From assembly GCA_973895155.1 (NCBI GenBank), contig OZ316896.1:20652152-20716151 (forward strand): a stretch of 64,000 bases of DNA, read 5' to 3'. The notes below the pieces were generated by a model, which saw only the letters and a list, made by a program, of their open reading frames with translations, did not search any database and was not told where the DNA came from. The translations under genes were made by a program, and so were the position numbers. Of this stretch, positions 4,501 through 63,221 are shown one piece after another; position 1 is the first letter of the stretch; each line of letters opens with the position of its first letter. Source of the stretch: Marsupella aquatica (taxonomy: Eukaryota; Plantae; Marchantiophyta).

Positions 4501-6992
4501 AATTGCTCCTGGCTTTGGATGACGTCTCTGATCGTGATATTAATGTTTTACTTGACTTAGCTGAAGATACAGATCCAGCAAGCCGCTTCATTTGGACGTC
4601 TCGTGAGCATGACATTTTGAAGGACGTGGGCGCAATTCACGAGGTCCATTTCATGGCTGAGAACCATGCTAAATTGTTATTCATGAAGCATGCGTTTCCA
4701 GAGCCAACAATGCTAGATGTGGAGCTGGAAATTCTTGTTGAAGACGTTGTCAGGAAATGCGATGGGCTGCCTCTAGCCCTAGAAGTGGTGGGGAAGTACC
4801 TACGGGGGAAAGAGAAGCACGAGGTCTGGAAAGATACTCTAAGTGTGTTACAGAGGGCAGAAAAAGTGAAAAATTTGAACGAAAGATTATGGACACGGTT
4901 GAGGCTGAGTTTTGACAGCCTTGGAGAGAAGGAGCAGGAGATGTTTTTGGATGCCACAAACTTCTTTTGTGAGAGCTGGGTCTGGACATTGGGTAAAGCC
5001 AAACTGGCATGGAGAGCAGCTTATGGAGAGGTGAGTGAGCTACTGTGGCAAACCTTGGTAGATATGTCTCTTGTCTATGATGTGGGAGAGGATGACCGTA
5101 TCAAGGTGCATGAGCAACTTCGAAGTGTTGGAAGAATGATTGCATCTGAGCCTGAGCACAACGGCAAGTACCAGGTTTGGATGTGCAATAGAAATGGGGA
5201 AGTTGAGTTGCTTGGAACATCAGATGCATCGCATGGAAAGGTATTTAATTAAAACATCTTAGTTTGCAATTCGCATCCATTAGCCAAGATTCCAAGTAAA
5301 AATTTGCAATAGTTTACATTTGAACTGGGTCAGTTTTTGGCAAAGGGTTTGTTGAAGTGGGAATGAGTGCCATGTGTGGCTCTTTTTCTTCTTTTCTTTG
5401 GGGCCCCCAGTCATGTCATGTAAGATGGGTGCAAGCACCTCCATGGAAAAATGCTAACCTAGGCAGCATCTGGGCAGACGTGTTTGGGTGGTTCAATAAA
5501 TCTGAGGAGACACAGAAGGCGAGTTTGTTTCAATTGCTGATCCTCTTGACCCAAAAGTTGCGGTAGTTTTAACCTAAAGGTTCTTTTCATTTGGAATTGC
5601 AGGAAGTTCGTGCCCTGCAGGTCCACCATGAGAATGGGGTTATTCAGGTCCAGAGTTCAAGGATGTGTTTCCAGAATACGAGGAAGTTGCGGTTCCTGGA
5701 AATGAACGACGAGATTCAGATTGTTGGAGCGACGAATGATACATCGCTACCAACCCAGCTTGTCTTGCTGAGCTGTCATGGTCGGGGTCTCTTCAACCCT
5801 GCCCTCCAAAAAGATCTGGTTGTTTTGAAACTATGGGGCATGGAGGACGTGCCGACTTCTATTGGGCAGCTCTCCAAATTACACCATCTTGAAATAAAAT
5901 TGAATGGCGCAAGATGTCATTCCCTACCCAGATCATTCGGGCAACTCAGCGCGTTGCGACACCTTAGATTGGGATCTTGTGAGGGCTTGCAAAGCTTGCC
6001 CGAGTCATTCGGACAACTCAGCGCTTTGCGAGACCTTACATTCCGTGAATGTGCTGATTTGGAAAGCTTGCCTGAGTCCTTCGGGCAACTCAGCGCTTTG
6101 CGATACCTTAAATTCGATTGGTGCAGGTCACTCAGAAGCTTGTGTGAGTCATTTGGACAACTGAGGGCATTAGAGCGCCTTGAATTCGACAGCTGTGATT
6201 CGTTGGGACGCTTGCCTGAATCCTTCGGGCAACTCTCTGCCTTAAACCATCTTCAATTCACATGTTGCGACAGCTTGAAACTCCTCCCTCAATCTTTCGG
6301 ACAAGTCGCCAGCTTAGAATATCTTTCATTTCAGTCCTGCTCAATACAATCTCTGCCCGAATCTTTTGGGCAGCTCTCCGCTCTAACCCGCCTTTTGTTC
6401 TGCGCCTGCCCAATAAAATCTCTCCCCGAATCTTTTGGGCAGCTCTCCGCTCTAACCCGCCTTTTTTTCTCCTTCTGCCCAATAAAATCTCTGCCTGAAA
6501 ATTTTGGACAACTCTCCAGCTTAGAAAGTCTTTCAGTCACCTCCTGCCAGATAGAATCTCTGCCCGAATCTTTTGGGCAGCTCTCCGCCCTAACCTCCCT
6601 TGTATTCGCTGCTTCGCCCTTTGGCCACACATCCTCAAGGACTCGGCCAAACATCTCAACTCTACTAAATCTCCGATATCTGCAATTGTGGGATTATTCT
6701 GTCACGACTATTCCGGGCTGCGTCAGGAGCTTGAAGTCATTGCGCTGTGTAGAGATCATTATGGATGGCAAAACCTATTGTCGACTGGCCCCAATGGTTG
6801 GTGGACAGTCGAAACGTGGAGGTTTCCAATCACCAGGGACTGGAAAACATCTACCAAATTTTCCACGTGCGCGACGGAATTCTTTTACTAATTGAGAAGG
6901 GTCCAGGAATGAATTACTATTCGCAAGACCTTGATGGGTTCTTCCATGCAAATAATCTCAAGACCGACATATCCAAGCTTCTGGACCTTTGA
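1568..6992 (+). CDS. NLR immune receptor: N-terminal extension + MLKL/Cbl-N-like 4-helix domain + NB-ARC + LRR; possibly pseudogenised (apparent frameshifts near 2215 and 6770)
   Basis: GT-AG exons predicted at 1568-1804, 2176-2453, 2788-3095, 3263-3498, 3829-3911, 4149-5240 and 5603-6992, with compatible phases from exon 2 onward. NB-ARC motifs: P-loop GMGGLGKTT (4296), kinase-2 LLLALDDV, RNBS-B SRFIWTSR, CDGLPLAL, RNBS-D EMFLDAT, MHD-equivalent VHE (5106). About 10 LRR units of type LPESFGQLSALxxLxF (5920-6610). Confidence 0.93.
2788..3400 (+). other. NLR N-terminal four-helix-bundle domain (MLKL/MCAfunc/Cbl-N-like CC), exons 3-4
   Basis: Amphipathic helices MASESYTLLQQCLRGIG..AAVALSMVAYVLERV..NSGKCLALLERMLEL..LQKVLIATIKGVSFCCKY..IRFGLATVNKEQIDALCKKLNEL. 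The N-x3-C-x2-L-x2-R pattern is typical of MLKL-like 4HB domains. Confidence 0.6.
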
Positions 6993-33330: not shown

Positions 33331-33338
33331 TGCAAAGA

Positions 33339-33623
33339 ATTCACAACGAGGGGCAAGATCGAGGCACATTAAGGCCTCGATCGTACTAGTCAGGGCAGCG
33401 TTGGGGTTGTTTGGGCGATGCGAGGGTGACATGTAGAGGCTGCCCAGAGAGCTCCGCTGCACCTAAACAACAATGGTCCTGTCCATTGCCTTTCGGCCCT
33501 GTCCCTCGCTGCAGTCCTGTCGCGATCCCCCCGCACCCCGTTGCTTTACGCCCGTCACGCGAAACACCCGTCGATGGGACTGTATTTTGCTGTCGCCCAT
33601 CGGCAACTAAATTGAGCTGTATT
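33339..33623 (+). repeat. Left TIR (285 bp)
   Basis: Reverse complement of 43762-44084 apart from a few substitutions and two insertions in the right copy. Contains the hairpin GATCGAGGC-N8-GCCTCGATC (33357-33382). Confidence 0.95.
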
Positions 33624-33856
33624 CACCTACTCTCTAGTGTATAAGCTTGGGCTACTATTTTGAATTGAGGACTACGCATTCAAACCTGGCAATTCAGGCG
33701 CGATAATGTTTCCAATTAGTAAATGGCGCTCGTTTTTCTGTGAGAGACAACCCAAGGATCAGGATTGTAATGCTTTCCACTACCAATTCAGGGATTGGGC
33801 TACGAGCAAAGTCAAATTCCTAGTTTACAATCACGTTTCACAACTGGGATGCAGAA

Positions 33857-36800
33857 ATGAACTTGCAGGTGTTGAGGTCAATCTTCCCATCGTTTGTGCA
33901 AGGATCCTCCACTTTGAGCACAAAAGCACATTCCCAGGATGTGCATGCAATCAGCAGCACAACGCAGGCGGAGGTATTACAAGTACTGAATGACAATGGG
34001 GAAATTATTGGATTGGGTAGTTTACAGGGTAAGTTCTGTAAAATGGGTTTGGATGACGACGCACAGAATGAAGATGTCAAGAATGGGTGTGACAATCTCC
34101 CGGATAAGGACGATGAAAGAAGGGTGATTTCAATAAGGAATCTTGGAGTCAGAATGATCGGCCCATACCGGACCTAAAGAAGTGCTTCAACGAGAGCAAT
34201 AAATGTGACAAAATTCAATACCCTCCTCCTGGCGAATTTGATGCAAGCGTCTTGCAATGGTTTGGGAGTAGGGCAGACTCTTCATGGATTCCTAAACATA
34301 GGTTGAATGACTTCATTTGGGGAGAAAATATGAGTGATTCCTTCCATACACAGTTTTCAGTGCGAAGGTCCGCTGATCATAAGATTAATGGGGCAAGACC
34401 TCTTGAGAAGAAAGTTATTTGGTATAACTGTTGTTTTGGGCCCGAAGATAAGCAACATTGGAAGAATGTTGTCGGCAGCCACAAAGTTCCACAGAACTTG
34501 AAGTCGAAAGAAGGGGGTGTGTACTTAAAAAAGAAAACGATCTTAGGTAAACACAAAGAAAGTAGTCCCCATGCAAACTCACGTTCTGCTAATTTCTGAC
34601 ATTTTCGTTGCAGAAGTAGCTTCACACGATTCGCGAACAGTGTCTTTGCCATACTCTGTTCATGTTGTGAATGGTACCGAACAAATGCAGTGTATTTGCC
34701 CATATTTTGCATGTTAGGTCCTGCAAATCGCATCTGACGACACGCTTTTCTAACCAATCATATACATGTCAGGGCACAGCATCAAGCGAGGCTGTAGGTG
34801 TAGCTTCACTGTCAGCCATTTTGTACAGCGCAAAGATGCTCTGTTGATAAGATTGTTACATAGGGACCACGAGGACAAACACGGGCAAACATGCCATGGC
34901 TTGAATGATACTTCTGCATATGCTTCTAACTGTCACATAGCTCCACGTATTTTGATGAAACTCAGGGCTAAAATAGACCGATATTTGAGAGCTGGGTTGT
35001 CAGCAAAGGCCATAATCAGAGCACACTTTGACGAGGTTGCTGTGAAATGGCAAAATGAGCATCCGGAGTCGGATGCCGATGTCATCTTTAGTAGAGACAT
35101 GCAGCTGAAACCTAAAGATATATGGACTATTCGGGAAGCAATGCGCAGGAGACAACCCTTTTATACCACTGACGATGCAGCTAGCATTCAAAATTGGGTG
35201 CATCAGAATGACGGGAATGTACTCCTTTACCAGCCACAAATGAAACTCGAGAACCAACCATTCATTCTAGCCTGGTCAACAGATTGGCAAAAAAAGCAAT
35301 TGGCTACGCTGGGACATGACAATGCAGTTGGCTTCGATGCAACATTTGGCACTAACCACTGCGGGGTACAAACTCAGAGTCCCTTACAAAAGTTTGACTT
35401 CCAACTTGTAGACGCGCATTTTTGTTGGCTGAATTTAGACGCTCCTTTTTTTGGCTGAATTTTTATTTCGTGTCATGTTATCATTTGATGTTCATTTCTC
35501 GTATCATTGAGCCTGCGCAGTTCCCCTTCTACACAATTGTTGTGTTCGACAAATTCCAGAATGCGATCCCTGTCGTTTGTGCCATCCTTCAAAGGTATTT
35601 AGCAGTGCATGTTATAGCGGTATTGTCAGCAGTGAAGGGCGTTGCAGACACTACAAGAAAGGAATTGGGCCACCCTGGCCCATGGAAGCCCAATTGCTGG
35701 ATCATCGATGTTGCAGACGAAGAGCAAATCGCCATCAGGTAAATCCAAAGAATGCTTGTTTGCGTGACTATGGACCGGCTGCCTACTTCTCACATGAGGT
35801 ATTCATTTTCAATCTAGCGTATTCTTGCAATTGCACCCTCACATGTACGTGTTAACCTGCATTTGTACAGCAATGTGTTCCCAAATGTGCCGATCACGTT
35901 CTGTAGCTGGCACGTAAGAAGGGCTTGGACCAAGAATATTATCGGGAAGGTGTTATGCCCCTTTGCAAAGGCCCACATTAATGCAGACCTCGGGGCATTG
36001 ATGTACTCTAATGGAATAGGTTTGTTCCTCCATTGATTGTTACGCTCCACTTCAAATCTGAAATTGTGCATGTTGCAATGATTAATTGTCAATTACTAAT
36101 CCGTGTTCATGCAGATCTCACGGCCGAATCTGAGGTCTTTATGGAGAGGTGGAAGGAGACTCAACCTACCTTTGTGGCATACTACAAAAGAGAATGGCAT
36201 GCCAAAGTCAATCGGTGGACTGTAAATTTCAGACAGTTCATACATGCGAATCAAAACACAAATGGAGGAATCAAGAGGTAGCACCACACTCTGAAGGTGG
36301 AACTGAAGGCCGATAAGAGCAACATCAGTGGCAGGTCCATCCCATGGCTCATTGAGAAGCTTAAAGCCATTGAGAATCACTACTGGTGTATGTCCGCCGA
36401 TAAGTTTCAAGGCAGGCTTAGGAATCGGACTGTAGAGCAACACATACACAAATGCATGAACCGAGCCAAGCTCATCCCGGATCATTTTGTCACACTATTT
36501 GAATGTGGGTCAACAAAGTGTGCTTCGGTGAAAAGCATGTCAGAAAAAATTGCTACATTGAAGGAGCACCTGGTTACAGATTGGAACACCGATTCATGCT
36601 CATGTACGTGCGGATATTCAATGAAGGGCAATGCATGCAAGCACCAGGTATTTGCAACTTCATGACTCCTATTTCATAGTCCAGGACAAATTCAGCCTCA
36701 TAATGTTAGCACTAGTGAGGTTGTCGTTCGTAAATTACAGTAACACTTTAGCAGTAGTGAGGCTGTCTCTCGTAAATTACAATACCACAAGTTCATCGTT

Positions 36801-37906
36801 TTTCCACAGATCAAGGTTCTATTGATGACACAAACCATGACAGAATTGGATCTTCTCACCCAGCTTGGTTCAAAGATGAGTACGTTCTGCGGAGGGCTTG
36901 ATGTGCACATGAAGGTGCAAACTGGGGAGTTCCAGTCCATTAACGAACTTGCAAACGTCACGCTTCAATATGATGATGACGAATTGTGGGATGAAGAATC
37001 GCCTGACCATGATTGCCTCCCTATTTCCCCTCCATTGGATGAGTTTGAAAGTGTTTTGAAGAAGGCATATGACACCGTATCTTATAAACCATCCCTTGCA
37101 ACTCAAGCTCTGAAAGAATTGAAGGCGTGGACTGAGTCACTGCTGACTCGGGAAGCGCAGCAGAATGTGGGCAGGCTAGAACCGGATCCAAGTTCATCGG
37201 AAACTTTGCTCCGAAATCCTGAGTCAGATGTGTCAACAATGCGAAAACTTGGTTGGGTGGACAAGCTTATGAGAGGCCCGCAAAAGAGGAAAGGGAACCA
37301 TGATACAGTTGAAGTAAAGAAGCAACTCACTACCTTTACTGCCCCTGAACGACTGGACATTAAGAAGAAGGGAAAAGTGCTTTCCTTCCAGGGAAAATTT
37401 GACAAGCTTGCAGTGGACGCCCTACAAGAATTGCTGAATTCTGTAAAGGAGAACACTTCACCCGACACATCACCAACACAATGTAAGTTTCTATATTATT
37501 GCTTATATAATGGGTCAATTTTGTAAAGTGCAACAATGCTGCCATGGCTGCCATTGTGACCACAACTAATGTTTCCATGTTCATTGTAGGGTGCCTCGGA
37601 ACTCCGACTTTGCAAACCACTTCACGGTCTAAGGCACCGTTCACAGCCTTATCAAAGGACCGTGCAAAGTCCAACACAGATGTTCCTGCACGTCACACAG
37701 GATGCCCAAGGAAGTCGAGGGCTGCCCCAACATATCCACTCAATGCCGTGAAGGACGGATGCTCTCAATCGGGTGTATTGCGTGAACCCCTCACTCAATT
37801 GCAAGCGCAAGTGATTGGCAACATTCACATCGGATCGAGTCAAGCTTGGGCTATGTCACCAAACTTTACTGACCTACTAAATGCATTCTCAGAGGGAGCA
37901 AAATAG
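33857..37906 (+). pseudogene. MULE DDE transposase with SWIM zinc finger (At4g13970/At1g60560-like), inactivated
   Basis: Exons ~33857-34546, 34773-35365, 35521-35738, 35871-36019, 36115-36647, 36810-37482 and 37590-37906. Motifs IQYPPPGEF, WIPKHRLNDFIWGE, YNCCFGPED, KRGCRCSF, H..G..CHG, FDATFGTN (D1), WIIDVADEE (D2), CSWH, SWIM CTCGYSMKGNACKH. Lesions: frameshift ~34116, catalytic E position reads K (AAG 36273), TAG at 36279 in place of W. Confidence 0.92.
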
Positions 37907-38731
37907 AAGAATACTGGCCACACTTCACCAGAAGCATGCAACATTGTTTGTATAACAGATTAGAACATGACAGTTGTGGATATACTTGATGGTGAGAACG
38001 TGCCAATTGCGGTCGTGCCCCCTAGTGATGAAAGATTCGGCACATGTGCCGTCTACCTCATTGTGAAATGGAATGTGAAATGGTAAACAATTACGCGCTC
38101 GTCATGAAGCTGGCCATGTATTTGCGTCTCAATTCTACTTTTGCCAAAAACCCGAGTTCACCCCTGAGCAGGCTTACTCGGAAGGAGTCAATTAAGTATG
38201 TTGCATGAATACTTGTTTCATGACATTTAGGCGTGGACCGTGTTTTGTCTTACTAACCCACAGAAGTACTTCACAATGTGTGAGGGTAATATCCAAACGT
38301 GCTCGTGGGTTCAATTCTAACTTGACGATTTTGTACGTGGTGTAGCATTACAAATAACCAATGCAGTTGAGTGAGTTAATGTAAGTTGAGAGCGTGACCA
38401 TTGCCATTCACAAAGTACAAAAGTGTGCACAATAAACAATTGCCATGAGCCATTCACATAGTACTCACTGTGCACAATAAACAATCAACAATTCCGACGA
38501 AGTCACTATGCTTTACATATATGTGGGGAATTAAATCCAGTAGTTACAATAAGGTACCATCACGAGTGGCATCTGTTACACATTGTCTGCACAAAAATTG
38601 CGCCAATTTATCGTTCAAAGACGGTTTACACGATCAGAAACTGAAGCTATCCATTTCCCAAGGTCATCCATGTTTTTTTCCACAATTGTTGGCTCCTTCG
38701 CAATATACCTGTCTAGACGCTTATTCACGTC

Positions 38732-41700
38732 CTATAAACTCCTATTAAAGGACTCATACATTAGCTGTAGCGGCGACTTAGTGTCTTCACCGTGCAGACC
38801 CAGGTTAAGGTCCACATCAAGTGTACCTTGAAGTACATGAGCCTCTTTAGCATTGTTTGCTGCACCTGCCACTTGAGATTCGATGATGGTGCGGGGACAC
38901 AATGGGAATAAATTAAGAACCTTATCTGCATTCAGAGTATGATTGTTGCCATTGACACAAGGTAGGCTGCTATCTAAACTATGTACAAAAATATTACTAT
39001 CAATTGTGTCCACACAAGCTCCAAATTCACCTTTCTGAGTGTCACTACTGTCAATTGGCGGCTGTGTATCAACACACACTAGATCATCAAAAGGTGTTGC
39101 GTCTTTAAACATTTCTGACATATCCTGCGTTTGCAAAATGTACTGAGGAACTTCTAAAGGGGAAGGTCCACCCAAATTGCACACAAGATCTGCATATAGG
39201 CAATCCCGAGGTGAGTCATTTGAATCACCCACTCCCGGGGGACAAAATCCTTTGTCGTCAAGAAGCACGGGCGCTTTGTCTTGGGACAAAGAGCACAGTC
39301 CCATGACAGCATCGAAGACCTTGCCTTGTTCTTCCTCTAGTGAGATGTCATGCCATTGATAATCTGCCAATGGCTCACGCAAATCCAATGTTTGACTTGT
39401 TCAGCATTGCAAATGTTGGCCAACCCTAAACTTCCATCTGTGTGAATTGACCACACTTGCGGTTGTGTCGCCTTCGATAGAGACCCATTGCTTCCAATAT
39501 CATCTAGGAGGGGAGTTTGATCTTGTGATAGGGTTATTCCTGCAAATGATCCATGTCCAAACAACATTTGCGTTGAAGTAAGATCATGTAAGCTTGTTAA
39601 AGTGGGAGGTGGGTCCTGCGGTTGCACTTCGTCCGATTCCGAGACATAATTGTTTGCTCCATCTTCTGCTGCAAAAACTTCATCATCTGGTGCGAGAGCT
39701 TCTGTGGGATGAAGTTGCTTCGTTTGGTAATACTCTGCTCGCTCGCGCTCCTGCTCATCGAGCGTCTGCAGAAACAATTTTGTTGTAGGGTCGTCCGGGA
39801 GTTGCCACTGAACATCACATTCATCAAAAACAGGAAGACCTTTACAGTGAACAGGTTTGTGAGAAGCGTGTCTCCTTTCTTACATCCACAAAATCATTCA
39901 TGCACACAGGAATGGATGCCGGTTCACCAGAATTTGGCCCCACATTTGTTGTTGTGTGCTGGGATGGCTTCTTCCGTGAAACCAATTTGTTCAATGGGAC
40001 ACATTTCTTTTTCCTCTTGGGTTTTGGCTTTGTTCTCCGCTCCTTAGGCGGAGCACCATCATCTGAAGTGTCAATCCAAACACTATTCATTGCGGCCTGG
40101 ACATGTACAAGCAATAAATAGAAATAAACAACCGATACATTCATTCCATAAACAAGCTGCAATGGCAAACAAAGTTCAAGTGCAAACTAAAAACCACAGC
40201 AGGTACAAACACATACACAAACATGAAACATGCATCGAACTCAAATGAGTTCTAATGTTGTACTTACTTGTTGTTTGGCCTCTGCCTCGCATGAGTGCCA
40301 TGTATGCACTAACCAAATTAGGTAGAGTCGTGGCACAACTATTGGGTTTTGCTTTTTGTTTCCACGCTTGGTACTCTTGCTCTGCCTTGTTCTCATACAC
40401 ACTCCACCCGTGGTTGTTCTCCCACATGATGGCCTCTCGATTCTTTGTAAGCCATGAAATAGCGTGCTGACAAATACTCTTTCTGTGCAGGAGCAATGCA
40501 GTGCTTAAGTGCTCAGAGTCAGTCGGAGTGACTGTGGTATTGAATATTGAGCCAAGGTGACCAATAGAGGATTTTAAGGCATGAAGGTCTTCACTGGCCA
40601 AATGGGAATGAGAACCTTCTTCAATTTCCTGCGACAATTTGTTCGTCCATGAACCAACAGCGAAAGTAGAAGGGCAATAAGAGATTAGACGTAGCAACTT
40701 CTTGAAATTTGTTGTCTTCACAAGGCTGTTCCAAGGATCATAACCAAGACTGGGCATCACGAACTTGACTACAGCAAGGAACAGGCCTTCTTCTCCCACA
40801 ATTGGACGGGGATGTGCGAATTGGTTCTCTTCAAATTTTGTGACCAACCGTTTGTAAATACATGCCCTGCATGTGGCATATCATGTGCATGTCAGTACAC
40901 AATGAATAGTACATTGTGACTTGCATATAGGCATTTAGCTAATTGAATTGCTTGAGTGCAAATTTACCTCATCCTGTACTTGGCTTGACTCCATCTAGCT
41001 CGCATGGAACCCCTGGCTTCATAGTACATGAATTGCAAACAACTTCACCTGGCTGCTTCCTCCTCCTTGCATTGTATTGTTGCCGTCTTTGCTCATCATC
41101 GCTATCTAGGGCATACAGGGATACCAAAGTCCCGGACAAAATTAGACCATGTTGTTTGAACACATGGTTTCCAAAAGTTCTCTCCGTTTTGAAGACTCGG
41201 TTTTTGCAAGGTGCAACCTTGCAGACCACTGCATTGGCATACAATGTGTAATGATCTCCCTCTATTGCAGCGCCATGTTTGGACTTAACTGCTATTGCCT
41301 GCGTTTGAACAGGTAGTGGATAGGATTCAGCATATTGAAAGCAAATGATGCCAAAATTCACTTAGTTCCATTCAATGTTACCCTCACCTTCTGTGCGTTA
41401 ACTCTGAATGTAGTATGTTTTGGAGGTGTTGCATCCTTTGAATCGCTATTGGAAGCTTCATCGGAGCTGTCACTGCCAGAACTAAATACTCTCTTACGGG
41501 GTGCTGCATAATTTCATCGCTATCAGAGCCTTCTTGAGAGCCCGTGGTCATAGACTCCTTTGCAGGCACATTTCTTTGGACCTTCTTAGCTCTTGCGGTT
41601 GGGAGTCTTGACCTCGTAACCCGAACATGCTCTTCAATATGTGCATCCTTTGACATTGTTTGTCTAGTCACCCGTCGAGGAGGTAACTTACCAGATTTTG

Positions 41701-42201
41701 TGGTGGACTTTGGGGGCGGTAAATTTACAGGCACATGACCTGATTGCCTTCTTGGTGCCTCGTTCAATTCATCAGGGTCTGACTCTGTTTCGGGTTCCTT
41801 CAAGGACAAACCCAGTTTCTTTGGCTGCAATGTGCGCCCGGTTGTGGGCGGTTTCGCCCACTGCCCGTCGTCATGACACTGCGAGGGCTCTGTAGCGCCA
41901 TCGTTCCCCTTTAGAGACCTTTGTCGATAGAGTAGAAGCTGCACCGCATGACATGCATCAAATAGTAAGGTCATGCCTCTAAAACACACTTCGTCCGAGA
42001 CTTGAAAGAAAGAACACAAAAAATATAAAATAATGCAGCACAGGCTCTACGACCTTACCCTAATTTGGTTTAAAGCATGCTTCTTATATGTAGACAACAT
42101 ACGGGGCTTCATACAAACAACATAGAACATAATGGGAATCACCTACCATTACCCTAATCTGGCTTAGTAATGCTTAGTACCTGCTTCTTAGTTCTAGCCA
42201 T
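38732..42201 (-). CDS. MULE accessory protein: predicted H3-tail-like N-terminus (MARTKKQ), basic disordered region, C2H2 zinc finger, helical domain, acidic C-terminus; partly decayed
   Basis: Predicted exons 42201-42181, 41938-41498, 41298-40968, 40866-40268, ~40096-39884 and ~39766-38732. C2H2 motif CKVAPCKNRVFKTERTFGNHVFKQH; NLS-like RRTKPKPKRKKK. Several junctions need 1-2 nt frameshifts, so the gene model is approximate. Confidence 0.65.
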
Positions 42202-42587
42202 ATACTTGTGCAAAAATGGCGTATAGCAAACGTTGGTCCTGTTGTAAGTAGACCGATGTGTGTCAGTCTACACGAGGCCCGGTCAAAGATACTGCAATCC
42301 TTATCCTGCGTCACTCACTCATGAAACCAGGTTAGGATTGAACCAAAGATTAGAGCATATGTATTTGTAAATGAAACATGTGCGAGAAATTATGCATGAT
42401 ACATGGACAAGAATGAGTAAGGTGACTTCGAAGACTCAGATGATCAAAAGCGCCTAAACGCAATTCAACGTTGGATTCATTTGCACGCATTAACAACGGC
42501 CTTGTTTACATTGTGGGCAGTCCTAGTAAAGTTGGAAACATTCGTCACACACAAAAGCTGGTACTGCTATACATCTCAGTGGAAACT

Positions 42588-43448
42588 CTAATCTTTGTTG
42601 CCCCGAGAGGAGTACATGTCTAGCGATGCACTGAAAGCATTGGCTAGCCTCTTTACTACGGACACCATGTTTCCGGTGTCCTCTAATTTGTCACTTGCAC
42701 AATCATCATCTACTGCACTAATAGCTTCGGAAGTGGAAGTGTGAGTTGTCGACGATGTGCTTGTCTTATAATGCGATCCTGCCTTGGAATTTGACGCTGG
42801 CGGAGTGATAGGGACAACATTCACAACGATCCTTGGTGGAGTGGTATGAACAATAGCAATCGGGACTGGGGCGGGAGAAGGGACCCTTGATGAGGGGCTC
42901 CATTGGGCACCTCGCCTTGATGTCAACGATGGCTGCCAAACACAACTGTGCTGCAACACACTGTTGTTGGAAATGATGTTGAGTTCTTGAACGTGAACTA
43001 CTCTGCGTTGCAGCCTAAAAGTGACATTGCAGACAGGTAAATCCTTTGTAAAGTCGTGGACTCGCTGGAATTGATCATGGGGTTCCATAGCTGCCAATGT
43101 AGGGGCAGACATGTCCAACAGAGAAGCAGCTGAGTCCCAAATTGAAGCACAAAGTGCAGGCTGCCCAAAATTTGTCTGTAAAGTGTCATCTGACACAATG
43201 ACCTCAAAGCGAAACATATGAACATAGTTACCATTCTCTGCCGAATCATGGAGACAGTGCTTGTGATTCGGCCCATCAATATACACCTTACACATTCCAA
43301 TCCGAGTCCTCTCAGTGCATCCATGATACGTAAATTTCCTTGGGAAAGGATTTCGAGCTACAAAATTGAGGACTCGGACGTGCATTGGGCCCACAATTCG
43401 GGTCTCTACATCGATCACAGCACGGTAGACGTTGCTCAAGGTGACCAT
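42588..43448 (-). CDS. RPA1 (RPA70) C-terminal-like zinc-ribbon OB-fold protein with Ser/Thr/Pro-rich tail
   Basis: Uninterrupted 286-aa ORF from ATG 43448. Pattern YHGC-x8-C-x11-CLH..MFRFEVIVSDDT..ASIWDSAASLLDMSAPTL parallels RPA1 DBD-C (YxAC..C..C..C..RY.l...i.D.Tg...t.F...ae.llG.sA.el). Confidence 0.7.
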   Translation of the reverse strand: MVTLSNVYRAVIDVETRIVGPMHVRVLNFVARNPFPRKFTYHGCTERTRIGMCKVYIDGPNHKHCLHDSAENGNYVHMFRFEVIVSDDTLQTNFGQPALCASIWDSAASLLDMSAPTLAAMEPHDQFQRVHDFTKDLPVCNVTFRLQRRVVHVQELNIISNNSVLQHSCVWQPSLTSRRGAQWSPSSRVPSPAPVPIAIVHTTPPRIVVNVVPITPPASNSKAGSHYKTSTSSTTHTSTSEAISAVDDDCASDKLEDTGNMVSVVKRLANAFSASLDMYSSRGNKD

Positions 43449-43761
43449 TTTTTCTCCCACAACAATGACAGATTGGAATGAGACAACTTGCCTGAATTGG
43501 TCTTAAGCACTGCACCGTGCACGTTCGCCCTGCGCAAACGAAACAACCTTCAGAATTGTGTCGATCAGAATGATTGGCAACAATGTAGCAGGGCTGAACC
43601 CGATTCGATGCAAAGCATAGCTGATCTCCGCCACCCTAAACCCTTCTGTATCGACCCTAAAATGTAAGGCGACAAAGCAGCTGGAATGCCAATCTCATGT
43701 GCAGATACCCTTTGAGGCACATTAAGGCCTCAATGTACGTCGAGTACATTTGATTCATTGC

Positions 43762-44084
43762 AATACAGCTCAATTTAGTTGCCGATGGGCGACAGCAAAA
43801 TACAGTCCCATCGACGGGTGTTTTGCGTGACGGGCGTAAAGCGACGGGGTGCGGGGGATTTGCGACGGGGTGCGGGGGGATCGCGACGGGACTGTGGCAA
43901 GGGACAGGGCCGAAAGGCAATGGACAGGACCATCGTTGTTTAGGTGCAGCGGAGCCCTCTGGGCAGCCTCTACGTGTCACCCTCGCATCGCCCAAACAAC
44001 CCCAACGCTGCCCATCTGCTAACGCTGCCCTGACTAGTACGATCGAGGCCTTAATGTGCCTCGATCTTGCCCCTCGTCGTGAAT
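43762..44084 (-). repeat. Right TIR (323 bp)
   Basis: Matches the left TIR plus a 21-bp duplication (gcgacggggtgcgggggattt) and a 17-bp insertion duplicating aacgctgccc. Confidence 0.95.
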
Positions 44085-44558
44085 TGCAAAGATGCTATGG
44101 TAATACATAACCCATCTGCAGACTGTCAGAACCCTCTCCCAAACGGAGATGAGAATGGTGATCATACTCTCATATTGTCAGCAAAAGCAAAGCTTACTTT
44201 GCTGGCTATATCGCAAACCTGCATGATAACTTAAAAACATATCTTTGTGAAAAACCTCTTTCACAATTGCACCACTTTCTCCCAGGACTGTCTTCCAATT
44301 ACCTGTTAGAGGGAGGGAAAGCCCAAGTTGCGAAGATGACCTTCTACTGATGGGTGGATCATCTTTTGGTTTTGAGGCAACATTGAGGGTTGGGAAACTC
44401 AAAGTTATGGATCATCCAGTCCCTTTTCAGGTGTTTCAAGGGAAATATCAATGCTATTGAGTAGAAATATTTTGTTGAAAAGGATCCAATCCAGGCTTCA
44501 CAATCCTATCTGAGAAAAAATATCTTAACAAGAATCCTATTCGAGCCGGCACTGGTGA

Positions 44559-45087
44559 TATAGCATGCTCATCTTGGAACATGCTTGATTTTTTGTCTTG
44601 TAGTGATTTGAAAGTAAATAAAATATGAGAGCATAACTAGAAGGATAAAATAATGTAAGTAAAGTGCTTGCCAAGAAAAGCATAGTGACAAGTGAAAACT
44701 ACAGTCAAGTTTTATGACACAACTATGCTATGATTTGTGCACTTATCTGAATAAAAACCATAAACTTAGGAAAGAAAGACATGAGGAGAACTTAAGACAC
44801 TATGTGTTCAAGTTATTTAGAATCATTTCTCTCACTCATGAGAATACTTTGTTCAAGTGGTGGACCAGTTGGTTCATCTCTAAGAGATCACAAACTTTAA
44901 AAGCTATAAGGGGCTTGTCAAAATAAGTTCAAAATACTCTAGAATACCTAAAATTAAAGGGGTCTAAAAATTGAATAAAAAATGTATATGATACCAAGAC
45001 TATCCCTTGATAAAGCACATGGAAATAAAACTACATGACACACAAAATATGAATAGACAAAATCTGAAAGGTAAATTCACCATATAG
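44559..45087 (+). repeat. Dispersed AT-rich repeat family C, copy 1 (~530 bp; probable non-autonomous TE)
   Basis: Colinear with 62739-63221 from tatagcatgctcatc.tggaacatgcttg to gaaaggt.aattcaccatatag. Confidence 0.85.
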
Positions 45088-53400: not shown

Positions 53401-56178
53401 AAATGTACCTGTACTTGGGCTAATCTTAGTGGGAATGATAGGTCTATTTTAGAGGGACATGGAAGAGCAGATGTACCCATGTTCGGCCAACTTTCACAGT
53501 GCCTCCTGCTAAGTTTAGAGCGAACGGGTACACCAGATTTCACACAGATAAGCATACGCCCTTGCTCAGGTAATTTCAGAGGGAATGATAAATCACAACC
53601 CGTGCCTTTACCATGGGCAGAATAATTGCCCTCCATTCTCAATGAGATAGTGGTTTCACTGACAAGTAAGCATGATTGACTCAACTTGCTCAAGATCTGT
53701 TTGCACAAAAATCATATGTCAACCCATGATCCAACAACTTGTAAAGCTCTTTTCTGTATTAAGATAGTAAAAAGGGCGAGGCATATCCAAATTTAATGGA
53801 TCACAGGTCCATCCTGGCTCCAACTCCCCTCCCACAGTCCACACTGGATTGCCACTTTATTTGTTACCTATATTATATTATTATTTCCAACAAAGCAATT
53901 GTAGCAAGGGCCCGCCTCCCAAAAGCAAAATTGATTGGGTCGTTCCATAGAAAAAAGGAAGGACCACAGTCAGTTCCAAATCATTGAGCTACTGTACATA
54001 CAGGCAATAGGGAGTCTCAAACATAGGCTGCCCAAGGGATATATCGTCTAGACCATGGAGTCAAAATGGCTAGGCACCTCTAACCAGGGGCCACAATTGA
54101 CCTCTAACCAGGGCCCACAAATTTTCTCCCGGGAACCTACCCAAATCGTCTGACTGGGGCTGTTAATGCGAAAGGAGATCCCAAGACCCTAGTCAAATTA
54201 GGTCCCATTGGGCAACGCCTGCCCCAAAGTGTGACCACCTTCAAAGTTTCTTTTTGATTGAAAAAAGAAAAAGAAAAAAGCGTCACCACCTCAGAGTTTT
54301 GCTTAGGAAATTCCAGCCCTCCAAGTTTACAATGGCAAAATTTGAGAAGCAGTTATACGTACACACTATTTTTGCGAGCGGTGCTGTCAGAAGTGGTTAC
54401 CCTACTTGAGGGCAAATTCCTATAATATGCAGGTCTACGTTTTTAGCCAACCAGAATAATTCATAGATCTACAGTACCTTTTTCAGCCAAACAATTTCAT
54501 TCTGCAACGTAGCGTATCTGAGCAATATCTATCTTGCGATGTATTAATTTATCGAGGGTCAGTGAAGTACTCATTACCTCACGGACGAACTGTGGATCGT
54601 CGATTGATCTGCAATCCATAAATGAGGGATGTAATTGAAGCGAAGGTACCTGTCGAAAAAGCGATTCGCACAGGGATGGGAAGGGTATGAAAGGCCGTAT
54701 AGTAGCTCGACTGTGAGATGGAGAGGAGACCTTCAGCTCACTAGCCAATGGCAATTTGAGGAGTGGTGGAGTGGAGTGGAGTGGAGAGGGAAGCACTCTA
54801 GACAGATCTACTTTTTTTGTGATGCACCTGCGTATCAATCTTGTGTCCACTCTCGGGGATTGTTGGTGCTTCAATGACTCAATGCTCTGATGAGTGATGA
54901 CACCTTGGGGCTGACGAGGACTCGTGTCTGACTTATCCCTAGCAGAAGCAGCGGGTTCTCAGCTGTGATCATTCATCTTTTTGTTACGTATCAATTGATC
55001 GTTCTGATCATGAGCTCACTCTGCCGGATCATCATCCGCGATCTTGGCTTCTAGCGCGGCACTCACACACTCTCAACCGGGCCTGGGGTGCTGTCTGTAT
55101 AAAGAGTCCACTGTACTGACAAACTCGGCTTCAACTCCTCTCTGAGTCTGACGGTATGTGGAGTGTGGACTTTTGAGCCGATTGATTGCGGCCTGTAAGC
55201 TTTGATATTATTATTTTGCACGCACGCAAATTGAGTTTGAGACTGCGAGGTCTTTGGGAAATTGTTCGCTGGAGGATCTCGGTTCTTAATATAGTTGCGG
55301 GCAGGCTTGCATTGCCTGGCAGGGCGAATTGAGCGAGGCGTGGGTTTGGATCGTAGTAACTGTGGACGCTGTCTTTGTTCTGAGGAGGGCATTGCAGGGG
55401 GACCCAGCTGATTATATTTGGTCTTGTGGATGAGGAAGATGAGGATTTGATGGCGGTGTGGTTTGTCACTGTCGTCGCCCCCATTTGTTTGCCACTGCGA
55501 TTTTTGTTTTGAGATGACGACTTTTTCATCGATGCAGGGGAGACTGACGTTGGAGCCAATCCTGGAAATCGGTGGCGGGGTGACTTGGAAGCCCAAGACT
55601 TGAAGCAAATTGGCGTAGTCTACTAGTTTGGTTTGGTGTGGTCGTTTTTGTTACTAGCGGACGATCCGTCCGCCCAGGAGAGAAAGAGATCTCGTCACTT
55701 GAGGAAGAAGAGACTTGAGCATTCATCATTGGGACAGCTGATATAAGGAGCAATCTAGGGGAGGTTAAGAAGGCTGGGCTCTCGACATTGACAGACGGAT
55801 TGAAATGCTACGAAAATGGCGACGAGCAGCTCCGGCGTTTTCGATTGGGCAGCAGCGAAGGACGCGGCCTCACCTATTCTTTGAGGAGTAGAATGCGCTC
55901 GGATGATGGAACGCTCAAGGAGAGCAGCAGCAGCAGCGAGAGCAGTTGTGGAGGGACGATGCTCACAGCAGCTGTATCGGGGATAGACTTTTCATTGAGG
56001 GAAGTCTCTGTTCATAAGACTTAGTATATATATGTTGTTGCAAGTCAGTGGTAAGTGGTGGACGGAATGGGATCAGGTTGAGTCGCACCACAGTCTTAGG
56101 AAAAATTGACTAGTACAGAAGAAATTCGAATAAAAAGGCAGTGTCGAGGGTGTATTGTAAGTTCGTCCGCAAATATTG

Positions 56179-57108
56179 ATGGCGAGGAGGTGGATTTGTG
56201 CACTGGGAGGGCAGCCAGTGAGGGTGGTGCATGGGGATGGGCAGGTATTATCGCTCATGCCTCCGGTGACAGTGGCGGACATTCTCGTCAACCATCCGCA
56301 CCATTACATCTGCCACATGTGCCCAGAGCTACCCACGAACAAGTCTCCCATGCTCTCCCTGGATTACGACTTGGAGCCAGGCTATCTGTACTTTCTCCTC
56401 CCGCTCCCCCGGCTCTTTCCAACGAGCTCGGCCGGGCCTCCCTCCTGTTGCTGCCGTGCTACCAATCAGGACACGAGCATTGAGGAGGGACACACTACGC
56501 CTTCTAGAGATTCCAACGATCACAAGTTCGGGTTCCCTTCTCCTCTTATAGTCAAAGGAGTGCAGCGCATGATGGACAGGATCGGCTCTCCCATAAGAGC
56601 ACCGAAGAAGGTCTCTCCCGAGCTCTCTCGCTCACCTATGTCTTCTGCAAGAGACGCGACGTCGCCGCTGCTGTCACCAACATATGGATCCATTAAGAGC
56701 AGTAAGCGAAGAGGAGGAATTGCGTTTTTGAGCAGGAGTGGCAGATCGTCAAAGAGCTCCCCGAGTCGGTCGAGGGAGGGCTTTTCGTCTCCCAAAGCTC
56801 ATTCGAAGGGTGGCATGATGAGAGACAGTGGCCGGTGCTTCGTGGAGGATTTGTGCAGCATGAAGTGGAAGCCTCGGCTAGGGTGCATTTCGGAGACCGA
56901 CGCGGTCGTCACGGTATGTGAGGAGCTAAGACTCTGCTTGGATCGCAGAAGGCTCACCTTTGATAGCAGATTGCCCCGCCCCAGCTCACCGTCCAGATTG
57001 GGGGACATTTACAGGCTCTCGGCCAGGTCAGTAATTCAACCTTCATCTCCAGCTGGGATAATGAATTTAGTGCCCCGATCTGGCTCTGTGTGTGTCCCTT
57101 ACGCTTGA
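56179..57108 (+). CDS. DUF4228 (PADRE) domain protein, single coding exon
   Basis: VRVVHGDGQV..PVTVADILVNHPHHYIC..LEPGYLYFLLP, a Ser/Arg-rich middle, and WKPRLGCISE matching the W+PxLxxIxE C-terminal motif. Confidence 0.9.
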   Translation: MARRWICALGGQPVRVVHGDGQVLSLMPPVTVADILVNHPHHYICHMCPELPTNKSPMLSLDYDLEPGYLYFLLPLPRLFPTSSAGPPSCCCRATNQDTSIEEGHTTPSRDSNDHKFGFPSPLIVKGVQRMMDRIGSPIRAPKKVSPELSRSPMSSARDATSPLLSPTYGSIKSSKRRGGIAFLSRSGRSSKSSPSRSREGFSSPKAHSKGGMMRDSGRCFVEDLCSMKWKPRLGCISETDAVVTVCEELRLCLDRRRLTFDSRLPRPSSPSRLGDIYRLSARSVIQPSSPAGIMNLVPRSGSVCVPYA

Positions 57109-60415: not shown

Positions 60416-61956
60416 CTAGACAGTAACTGCACCAGAAGGGGCTTGAGAGGGACTGTTAAGTCTCTGCATTGCTGTTTTGGCATCAGGATATTCTGGACTG
60501 ACGGCCAGAGCTTGCTGGTACGCCACCAACGCATCTTCAATATCTCCAACTCTTTCACAGCAGCTGCCCAACATGACATGTGTTTGAGGGTTAGCTGGGT
60601 GTAGACCGACAGCCTCTTGCAGGTCTTTAAGAACATCCTGCATCCCATCCCTGCTTCCATTCATCTGCTCGAGCGTGAGCTCTACCCTTTGCAGCAAAGT
60701 GTCAGCCCTTTCTTCCTTAGAGAGGCTCTTGGCAAATTCTTTCGACAGGGCTGTATTCAAAACCTTCAGAGCAGCTACAGGTTTTTTAAGCAGCTTTAAT
60801 GCTAGGCTCTTGACAATGAGCGTTGCTGCATCATGGGGATTCAGTTCGATTGCAAGATCTGCTTCAGTGATCGCATTCCCAGCTAAAGATCGAGCTTGAC
60901 TTGCAGACACCTTTTCATTTCGGGCGTTATTCAGAAGCATAGCTGCTTTGACAAAATGGCGGCGTGCCTGTAGCACCAATCAGTCACAAAATGAATCAAT
61001 TCTCAAAGAAATACAAAAGGAAGTACTGACAAACTTCCCCGCTAACATGAAGCGCATCGGTATATCATTGTGGAGTAACAACATCTGACCGTGAAGGCAT
61101 AACCAGGAGCTGGGACGATTTGGTTCGGTAGTGACTTAGCTGTGGAAAGAGGCTCGAAACAACTTGCATAAGACTTAATAAGAAAAATTCTATGAGAAAG
61201 TTACTGGACACCAGAGGATCAAAGAGGAATGTGACACAAATAGAAAAGCCACAACTAGAAAAGCAGGAACCAAGCAAATAGACCACCTAATACCAATTTC
61301 ACCGACACCAATGATTTATGAATATTCAGGGGTGCATCATCTGGCCGAGGTTACAATGATGATTGTGAAGAGTATGTTTTGCGTAAGAGGAGGCAGCTCC
61401 TTTGAAGGTACGCTTCAGTTCCTCAGTGAAGTAGCTGTGAAAAGGGGCTCGGAAGTACATAAAGATTTTGATAGAACATATGTTTTCTGAGAGGATTGTT
61501 AAACCCCAATCAGTAAAGCGGTTTCCACCTTCCAGCAATTAATCAATCTAACAGAGCAAATATCATGAGATGCCGACAAGTGCCATCCTTTCGGGCATCC
61601 TTTAGGGCACCTGGAAAGTAAAAATCCTATCCCTTCTCTTGACTTGCATAAATTTGGCTATTGATACAAACTAAGCACAACATATCACATATCAAACCGA
61701 ATTGGGGGCAAAGCAAAGAACTAGTTAGAACTATCTATATTCCAAGACTCGTCAGCAAGCAAAGCATCTACGCTTCCCCTCCTCAAAAATATGCACAAAT
61801 CATTTCTATCCAACGCGCAAAACGAGCATGCAGTACCTGAGTGAGGCGAGCTCGGCGCCTTCGAAGCCTCGCATGTATACCATTTCCAACAGAGCGAAGC
61901 AGAAGCGCCGCCAGTAGCCCAAGTACTACCAGGGCGTAGGTGAGAAGGTTCTCCAT
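60416..61956 (-). CDS. Signal-anchored tetratricopeptide-repeat (TPR) protein
   Basis: Exon 1 61956-61837 (MENLLTYALVVLGLLAALLLRSVGNGIHARLRRRRARLTQ, CAG|GT) joined in phase 0 to exon 2 60967-60416. TPR motifs AIELNPHDA, AVGLHPANPQTHVMLGSCCERVGDIEDALVAYQQALAVSPEYPDA. Confidence 0.9.
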
Positions 61957-62738: not shown

Positions 62739-63221
62739 TATAGCATGCTCATCCTGGAACATGCTTGGAATTTTTGTTTTGTAGTGACTTGAAAGTAAAT
62801 AAAATATGAAAATATAACTAGAAAAATTGGTGCACAATTTGACCAATGAAAAGTACAATCAAGGATGCTACCATGTGTGCACTTAATTCAATGTCATGAA
62901 TGATACTTATTTCAATAAAAAAATCATAAACTTAGGAAAGAAAGACATGAGAGTAATTTAAGACACAATCAAAACCATTTCTCTCATTCATGAGAATGTT
63001 CAACTGGTGGAGCCGTTCATTTCATCTCTAATAAATCACAAACATTAAAGCTGCCAAAATAAGTTCAAAATACTTTAGATACTAAAAATTAGAGGGGTCC
63101 ATAAATTAATTAAAAATGTATATGATACCCAGGCGCCCCTTGATAAGGCACATTGAAATAAAAATATATGACATGAAAACTCTGAATAAGACAAAATGTG
63201 AAAGGTGAATTCACCATATAG
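62739..63221 (+). repeat. Dispersed repeat family C, copy 2
   Basis: Colinear with 44559-45087. Confidence 0.85.

What the first reader, a model, noticed from the sequence alone, without database searches (positions are those of the whole stretch)
42588..43448. Intact RPA1-DBD-C-like zinc-ribbon OB-fold ORF inside a TIR transposon
Seen: an intron-less 286-aa ORF that stays open while its neighbours are decayed. It has a C-x8-C-x11-C-x-H cluster, then RFEVIVSDDT and IWDSAASLLDMSA, a low-complexity S/T/P linker and a short terminal amphipathic helix (MVSVVKRLANAF). Known: this spacing matches RPA70 DBD-C, the trimerisation and ssDNA-binding domain. Inference: it could protect ssDNA at the excision gap, promote gap repair and copy-number gain, or compete with host RPA.
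Basis: partly seen in the sequence, partly recalled or inferred. Interest (0 to 1): 0.75.

Follow-up and report, generated by a model that had tools for sequence, protein, structure and literature searches.

The report
Mutator transposon carrying minimal RPA-like gene
A cut-and-paste transposon in a plant genome (likely a liverwort or relative) carries a small gene whose predicted fold matches one domain of the host's single-stranded-DNA-binding protein RPA; it likely helps the element get copied back into the gap it leaves, a cargo I found described only for rolling-circle Helitrons.

Summary
The ORF is real (minus strand, 43448-42588, 286 aa). It lies in a 10.7-kb Mutator-like element with 284/323-bp TIRs, a perfect 8-bp target-site duplication, a SWIM transposase and a third gene. 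Residues 1-162 are an RPA70 DBD-C-like OB fold: family profile versus yeast RPA1 E=1e-4, top Foldseek hit human DBD-C, VIA Z 13.3. It belongs to an unnamed family of 59 stand-alone proteins (OB fold with C3H zinc ribbon, S/T/P linker, amphipathic tail helix); all 9 species-named members are dispersed paralogues in the liverwort Calypogeia fissa. No Helitron end was found. Diverged contigs cover all three genes, so the ORF is probably regular cargo of this element family; the context of the distant relatives could not be read. Most likely role (inferred, untested): an element-encoded ssDNA binder favouring gap repair after excision. RPA-like genes are known from Helitrons; ten literature searches found none in a Mutator element. 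New variant of a known kind; interest 0.6.

The parts
33331..33338 (.). Left target-site duplication TGCAAAGA (8 bp)
   Evidence: identical 8-mer at 44085-44092, chance at one register 2e-5
33339..33622 (+). Left terminal inverted repeat, 284 bp, GC 57%
33706..37482 (+). Mutator-like DDE/SWIM transposase gene, five GT-AG introns modelled (start codon and last exon uncertain); in this copy one frameshift (34115), one stop (36280) and K where other contigs give E (36273; catalytic role of that E recalled from MULE motifs)
   Evidence: Atlas FAR1/ALS2CR8/ZSWIM1-3 RNaseH-like/MULE clusters; Pfam SWIM E=0.0016, below cut-off
38615..41972 (-). Middle gene, multi-exon, unknown function; C2H2-like finger, a cysteine cluster and a SWIM-like C-x-H by eye; about four frameshifts in this copy
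   Evidence: no Pfam hit at cut-off
42588..43448 (-). Single-exon ORF, 286 aa, stand-alone RPA70 DBD-C-like protein
42963..43448 (-). OB-fold domain, residues 1-162 (pLDDT 94-98 over 1-160)
43248..43319 (-). C3H zinc ribbon C44, C53, C65, H67 (zinc binding predicted)
   Evidence: conserved in 53, 51, 53, 50 of 54 aligned sequences
42675..42962 (-). S/T/P-rich linker, predicted disordered (residues 163-258)
42600..42674 (-). C-terminal amphipathic helix (residues 259-283), a family-wide feature
43762..44084 (-). Right terminal inverted repeat, 323 bp (17- and 21-bp extra repeats relative to the left); inner end 314 bp upstream of the ORF's ATG
44085..44092 (.). Right target-site duplication TGCAAAGA

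Best explanation
The ORF is a stand-alone gene inside a Mutator-like element that encodes a predicted RPA70 DBD-C-like OB fold with a C3H zinc ribbon, and it likely acts as the element's own single-stranded-DNA-binding helper. Shown: position between TIRs and TSD, convergent on the transposase from the opposite TIR (the place of mudrB in MuDR); family membership; fold by prediction. Inferred: (1) it is regular cargo of the element family rather than a one-off capture; (2) the OB cleft binds ssDNA; (3) the tail helix oligomerises the protein to make up for having one OB domain; (4) it coats resected ends at the excision break and tilts repair towards copying the element back from the sister chromatid, giving net copy gain. 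This particular copy is probably drifting neutrally with its neighbours.
For: Fold: Atlas top three clusters Rep_fac-A_C, 0.95/0.94/0.94; profile of 54 sequences hits yeast RPA1 6i52_C at E=9.9e-5; all 6 Foldseek matches at E<=0.001 are RPA70 DBD-C-containing chains; VIA Z 13.3, rmsd 3.0 A over 138 residues to 4gop_C, tied with Teb1 OB-C at Z 13.2. Binding cleft: of the six Ustilago RPA1 stacking residues listed in PMC8329085 (passages), the alignment places Y487 on Y41 (53 of 54), F541 on W104 (F/W 51 of 54), I524 on R80 (41 of 54) and W537 on R100 (28 of 54); yeast F537, the same column, is a DNA-contact residue (PMC11848354, passages). Family: 59 of 63 hits are relatives, 73-383 aa, median 214; 33 of 46 long members have an amphipathic tail against 18.6 in shuffles, p=1e-4. 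Mobility: nine C. fissa proteins lie on nine contigs of different length, 26-58% identical among the seven compared, plus a near-identical trio. Cargo: in 4 of 4 runs contigs from under 90% to over 99% identity stack over all 30 bins of the element, and 84-90% relatives exist for each of the three genes; a 90% contig is collinear from inside the ORF to 43700, 62 bp short of the TIR (record 7). MuDR has convergent genes from both TIRs and is thought to replicate by sister-chromatid gap repair (10.1101/2020.01.09.900282, passages).
Against: No binding, expression or transposition data. No single contig spans transposase and ORF in another copy, and the surroundings of all 59 relatives are unread, so the link to Mutator elements is shown for this copy and only suggested for its close kin. 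Selection among copies is weak: 13 of 33 listed variants in the domain are synonymous against 28% expected, p=0.12, omega about 0.6, from the 40 best-supported of 224 variants. The domain has net charge 0, carries C at position 100 in this copy, and shows no matched counterpart for F590 or Y479. P0001 alone has no Rep_fac-A_C hit, and only 4 of 54 members hit it at E<=0.1. The same fold serves telomere proteins (Teb1, POT1, Cdc13, TEBP), so generic ssDNA coating is not the only option. MURB is described as needed for insertion, not for gap repair (PMC10401008, passages).
Confidence: 0.5

Rival explanations
1. It is an element-encoded, sequence-specific DNA binder that recognises the element's own ends or repeats (G-rich TIR motifs), working as an insertion helper like MURB or an anti-silencing factor like VANC rather than as a general ssDNA coat.
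For: mudrB-like position; telomere-type OB folds match almost as well (Teb1 OB-C Z 13.2, POT1 and Cdc13 Z 9.7); fast family divergence with many lineages per genome; TIRs are GC 57-59% with G-run repeats; extra ORFs of MULEs include anti-silencing VANC (PMC6446971, passages).
Against: The best matches are the sequence-independent RPA70 domain, and its generic stacking aromatics are kept. No motif test was possible.
Confidence: 0.22
2. It is an RPA70 mimic that binds host RPA32/RPA14 through its tail helix and competes with host RPA or dampens checkpoint signalling.
For: DBD-C is the trimerisation domain and RPA's three subunits join through C-terminal helices (PMC8329085, passages); the family keeps a C-terminal amphipathic helix.
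Against: The structural match ends at RPA70 residue 599; the helix here follows about 95 disordered residues and is poorly conserved in sequence across the family; identity to RPA70 is 11-15%.
Confidence: 0.12
3. The family really belongs to Helitrons (or is a dispersed host gene family) and this Mutator lineage merely picked up one member as a passenger.
For: RPA-like genes are established Helitron cargo (PMC4683698, abstract, background and passages; PMC6431247, passages); contig depth over the OB part exceeds that of its flanks, so further relatives sit elsewhere; the contexts of the relatives are unread; selection among copies is not significant.
Against: No hairpin-CTRR end among 11 CTRR-T sites in 41900-43800 (best hairpin -6.4 kcal/mol, inside the ORF); diverged contigs run across both ORF boundaries; the Mothra Helitron RPA is 472 aa in eight exons and that clade was found only in monocots and dicots, whereas no relative here exceeds 383 aa.
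Confidence: 0.13
4. It is a functionless Pack-MULE-type fragment of a host RPA1 gene.
For: It corresponds to one domain of a multidomain host protein; this copy drifts.
Against: 11-15% identity to RPA70, a different zinc ribbon, and 59 relatives sharing start, ligands and tail; no RPA1-like multidomain protein among the 63 hits.
Confidence: 0.03

Closest known systems
RPA70/RPA1 DBD-C (Pfam PF08646 Rep_fac-A_C; PDB 1l1o_C, 4gop_C, 6i52_C)
   Same: OB fold with zinc ribbon between beta1 and beta2 and helical insert between beta3 and beta4; aligned over RPA70 442-599; two stacking aromatics kept.
   Different: Stand-alone, no DBD-F/A/B; C-x8/9-C-x9/11-C-x-H instead of C-x4-C-x13-C-x2-C; no helix directly after the barrel; long linker and distal helix; 11-15% identity; many divergent copies per genome.
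Plant Helitron RPA (PHRPA; Mothra family, PMC4683698)
   Same: An RPA-like gene carried by a DNA transposon, divergent from core RPA and diverse.
   Different: Carrier here is a TIR/TSD cut-and-paste element; single exon, single OB domain; named relatives in a liverwort, whereas PHRPA was reported only in monocots and dicots. Common ancestry untested.
MuDR mudrB (maize) and VANDAL/Hiun vanB-vanC accessory genes
   Same: Extra gene or genes in a Mutator element, transcribed inward from the TIR opposite the transposase; three-gene layout as in Hiun.
   Different: Table 1 of PMC6446971 (read) lists FAR1, PMD, SET, OTU, MutB and unknown ORFs as MULE extras; the text has 0 occurrences of RPA. No sequence comparison with MURB or VANC was run.
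Telomeric OB-C domains (Tetrahymena Teb1, POT1, Cdc13, TEBP-alpha)
   Same: Same fold class (Z 9-13).
   Different: Those are parts of multi-OB host proteins; no sign of telomere context here.

Membership tests
RPA70 DBD-C-like OB domain | Five-stranded OB barrel with helical insert between beta3 and beta4 | tested here: met
   Model pLDDT 94-98; Foldseek E 4.6e-5 to 1l1o_C; VIA Z 13.3, 138 residues, 3.0 A
RPA70 DBD-C-like OB domain | Zinc ribbon (C4 or C3H) inserted between beta1 and beta2 | tested here: met
   C44, C53, C65 align with three RPA cysteines, H67 one residue before the fourth; near-invariant; C3H forms occur in archaeal RPA (PMC8329085). Metal binding itself untested.
RPA70 DBD-C-like OB domain | Eukaryotic spacing C-x4-C-x13-C-x2-C | tested here: not met
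   47 of 48 pattern-matched sequences end in H; commonest spacing 9, 9, 1 (22 of 48) versus yeast RPA1
RPA70 DBD-C-like OB domain | ssDNA-stacking residues (Ustilago Y479, Y487, I524, W537, F541, F590) | tested here: inconclusive
   Two kept as aromatics, two replaced mostly by Arg, two outside the profile alignment
RPA70 DBD-C-like OB domain | Trimerisation helix directly after the barrel | tested here: not met
   Match ends at RPA70 599; next helix is 259-283 after a low-confidence linker
RPA70 DBD-C-like OB domain | Binds ssDNA; binds RPA32/RPA14 | not testable with these tools
   Bench assays needed
RPA1 (full subunit) | DBD-F, DBD-A, DBD-B in front of DBD-C | tested here: not met
   ORF starts where DBD-C starts (model 1 = RPA70 442); in-frame stop at 43503-43505 and 1- and 5-base indels upstream in other contigs; 0 of 59 relatives longer than 383 aa, though many are ORF calls on short contigs
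Mutator-like element (MULE) | Long TIRs | tested here: met
   284/323 bp, 274 of 284 match
Mutator-like element (MULE) | 8-11 bp TSD | tested here: met
   8 of 8; range from PMC6446971
Mutator-like element (MULE) | MULE DDE transposase, often with SWIM finger | tested here: inconclusive
   Atlas gives FAR1/ALS2CR8/ZSWIM1-3 RNaseH-like/MULE clusters at 0.85-0.95 for one exon; Pfam SWIM 18.3 bits against cut-off 19.6, no PF10551 hit on single exons; spliced protein not scanned
Helitron with RPA-like gene | 3' hairpin plus CTRR (and 5' TC), no TSD | tested here: not met
   11 CTRR-T sites in 41900-43800, none with a GC-rich hairpin outside the ORF; the 5' TC was not scored; the enclosing element has TIRs and a TSD
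Helitron with RPA-like gene | RepHel gene in the same element | tested here: inconclusive
   No Rep or helicase family among the element's ORFs and exons scanned; small ORFs not scanned
Helitron with RPA-like gene | Protein falls in the PHRPA clade | not tested
Pack-MULE (recent host gene fragment) | High identity to a host parent gene | tested here: inconclusive
   Best of 63 hits is 52% identical and of the same stand-alone type; host genome not held

The most novel reading that the evidence does not exclude
A widespread liverwort lineage of Mutator transposons has long carried its own minimal, self-oligomerising RPA (one DBD-C with a rebuilt C3H zinc ribbon), the first ssDNA-binding accessory of a cut-and-paste element, used to steer repair of the excision break towards sister-chromatid copying in a haploid-dominant host that has no homologue to copy from. 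It would give a concrete biochemical handle on how Mutator elements turn cut-and-paste into net replication.
Probability: 0.3. Interest if true: 0.82.

Novelty: new variant of a known kind. Interest (0 to 1): 0.6.

Why it matters
Accessory genes of Mutator elements (mudrB, vanB, mutB) mostly lack a known biochemistry, and how these elements gain copies is ascribed to host gap repair. An accessory gene with a recognisable ssDNA-binding fold makes that link testable: purify, bind, delete, and score donor-site restoration. It also shows an RPA-like cargo outside rolling-circle elements and defines an unnamed single-domain DBD-C family with a changed zinc ribbon, useful for asking what DBD-C does alone.

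Tried and rejected
Word-index protein searches found nothing for the ORF or for two transposase exons among longer proteins; weak evidence, since the exhaustive search found 63 hits. Single-sequence Pfam and PDB searches missed the fold. Two scans of metagenome contigs gave no locus (64 and 17 pattern matches, none confirmed), so no second genomic context was obtained. No whole genome is held. No RNA holder listed among 5 runs, so expression is untested. Four look-ups in earlier findings returned nothing. Four of the 63 hits (P0039, P0059, P0060, P0064) were dropped as repeat-rich chance matches after reading them; six short or partial hits were also left out of alignment A1. An in-frame upstream extension towards a DBD-B was considered and rejected (stop at 43503-43505; frame-breaking indels in other contigs). 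Only one family member is in the window. CpG depletion of the ORF (0.64) equals that of the flanks (0.56-0.62) and is uninformative. Literature: ten searches, of which 21, 32, 33, 63, 64, 82 and 92 asked for RPA or OB folds or extra ORFs in Mutator or TIR elements; none listed such a case. Most subscription papers and Repbase reports are outside the library, and I opened no supplements, so absence from print is not shown.

Full report
Observation. Its length is not chance (0 of 2000 shuffles). The ATG sits in an A-rich context, an in-frame stop lies at 43503-43505, and other contigs carry 1- and 5-base indels upstream, so the protein most likely starts here.

The element. Inverted repeats at 33339-33622 and 43762-44084 match at 274 of 284 aligned bases and are flanked by TGCAAAGA on both sides. 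MULE TSDs are 8-11 bp and their TIRs long (PMC6446971; passages and one section part read). The left gene is a transposase: joined in a script at five GT-AG introns it reads 865 codons with one stop; one exon falls among FAR1, ALS2CR8, ZSWIM1-3 RNaseH-like and MULE clusters in the Atlas, and a SWIM finger scores just under the Pfam cut-off. A multi-exon middle gene of unknown function lies on the minus strand. The ORF in question starts 314 bp inside the right TIR and faces the transposase, the layout of mudrA and mudrB (10.1101/2020.01.09.900282, passages). Flanking genes (NB-ARC/LRR, PADRE, TPR) mark a land plant; that it is a liverwort or relative is inferred from the named relatives only.

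Are the neighbours decayed? Partly. Contigs from 4 of 4 public runs (two coded organisms) cover all 30 bins of the element at identities from under 90% to over 99%. They show an extra base at 34115, G at 36273 and G at 36280, so the transposase frameshift, K-for-E change and stop belong to this copy and are absent from other copies or alleles. The middle gene has differences at 41509, 40289 and 39391-39430 that break its frame here, and one more break near 39880 inferred from the frames alone. With 5-7 lesions in about 6 kb of coding sequence, an 861-bp ORF stays open with P=0.36-0.49. The ORF itself has drifted: N6, Y56 and C100 differ from the other contigs and from the family majority (D 22, S 33, R 28 of 53). 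Among 33 listed variants in the domain 13 are synonymous against 28% expected (p=0.12); only the 40 best-supported of 224 variants were shown. Intactness is therefore no evidence of selection on this copy.

The protein. Single-sequence Pfam and PDB searches fail, but the Atlas returns Rep_fac-A_C clusters at 0.94-0.95. An exhaustive search gave 63 hits; 4 were repeat-rich chance matches, leaving 59 proteins of 73-383 aa, 44 of them 190-310 aa. An alignment of 53 of them with the query has Y41, C44, C53, C65, H67, F81, D87 and Q126 nearly invariant. Its profile hits yeast RPA1 DBD-C at E=9.9e-5 and Ustilago RPA1 at E=0.6; 7 and 4 of 54 members weakly hit CDC24_OB3 and Rep_fac-A_C. The AlphaFold model is confident over residues 1-160, disordered over about 165-255 and helical at 259-283. 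All 6 Foldseek matches at E<=0.001 are RPA70 DBD-C chains; VIA aligns residues 1-162 to human RPA70 442-599, best Z 13.3 to Ustilago RPA1, with Teb1 OB-C tied at 13.2. Its argument does not: RPA1 has C-x4-C-x13-C-x2-C, whereas 47 of 48 pattern-matched family sequences end in histidine, mostly C-x9-C-x9-C-x-H. Counting along the alignment with the residue list of PMC8329085 (passages), two of RPA's stacking aromatics are kept (Y41, F/W104), two are mostly arginine (80, 100) and two lie outside the alignment. RPA's trimerisation helix follows the barrel directly (residue range recalled; role); here the match stops at 599 and the only helix comes about 95 residues later. That helix is a family trait (33 of 46 long sequences with hydrophobic moment >=0.4, shuffles 18.6, p=1e-4), often with coiled-coil-like spacing by eye.

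Distribution. Thirty of the 63 representatives were looked up. Nine proteins carry a species name, all Calypogeia fissa, on nine contigs of different length; two are JGI hypothetical proteins; the rest are unnamed. In a tree of 53 domains the eight C. fissa rows need three label changes and include a near-identical trio on three contigs (three short rows left out). Dispersed, deeply divergent paralogues plus recent near-copies are what a mobile-element gene looks like, but this does not say which element. Two locus scans found nothing, so their neighbours are unread.

Is it regular cargo? Suggestive. Relatives at 84-90% identity exist for the transposase, the middle gene and the ORF; one contig at about 90% runs from inside the ORF to 62 bp short of the TIR, and another bridges the ORF's 3' end into the spacer. 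No contig spans two genes of a second copy. A nested Helitron is not supported: none of 11 CTRR-T sites in 41900-43800 has a proper hairpin outside the ORF.

Mechanism. Most likely (0.5) the protein is an element-encoded ssDNA binder. Shown: location, layout, family, predicted fold, conserved cleft aromatics. Inferred: ssDNA binding; oligomerisation through the tail helix, standing in for RPA's multiple OB domains; action at resected ends of the excision break, favouring copying from the sister chromatid, the route proposed for MuDR replication. In a haploid-dominant plant the sister is the only allelic template (own knowledge), which would make such a helper valuable. Rivals: a sequence-specific end-binding, insertion or anti-silencing factor (0.22; MURB is described as needed for insertion, PMC10401008, passages); a passenger from Helitrons or a host family (0.13); an RPA70 mimic binding RPA32/14 (0.12); a dead host fragment (0.03).

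Novelty. RPA-like genes are known Helitron cargo (PMC4683698, abstract, background and passages; PMC6431247, PMC9033089 and PMC12477314, passages); the plant Helitron clade was reported only from monocots and dicots. A survey of 1631 MULEs lists no RPA among extra ORFs, a study of plant RPA1 has no occurrence of 'transpos' (PMC4731521, passages), and my searches listed no RPA-like gene in a TIR element; Repbase and most subscription journals were not searchable and no supplements were opened. I rate it a new variant of a known kind: known domain, known idea of a transposon-borne RPA, new carrier and new minimal architecture. Interest 0.6, held down by the unread contexts of the relatives and the lack of any functional evidence.

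Noticed in passing
window 38615-41972 (-): Middle gene of the element: a C2H2-like finger, a C-x2-C-x6-C cluster split by an intron and a SWIM-like C-x-H (all by eye), no Pfam family at cut-off; diverged contigs conserve its exons but not its introns. A candidate second accessory (VANB/VANC-like position).
   Followed up: partly
proteins P0010, P0011, P0029, P0046, P0062: 5 of 46 long sequences end in an [IV]-[DN]-L-[TS] motif resembling a SUMO-interacting motif (pattern recalled); linkers hold many S/T-P sites. Absent from the window's copy.
   Followed up: partly
window 43762-44084: The right TIR has 17- and 21-bp extra repeats relative to the left and carries G-run repeats on the plus strand.
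   Followed up: no
window 44559-45087 and 62739-63221: A separate dispersed repeat, 75% identical between the two copies, starts 470 bp right of the element; very many contigs end loosely at 44557-44599, so part of it is high-copy.
   Followed up: no
window 4089-6895 (+): NLR-type gene: NB-ARC (E 1e-26) and an LRR exon with 69-72-bp repeat units.
   Followed up: no
window 56161-57108 (+) and 60416-60979 (-): Host genes with a PADRE domain and TPR repeats.
   Followed up: no
alignment A1 versus PDB 9uh7_K: The family profile weakly hits human C18orf21 (E=0.027, partly through the S/T/P linker); probably compositional.
   Followed up: no
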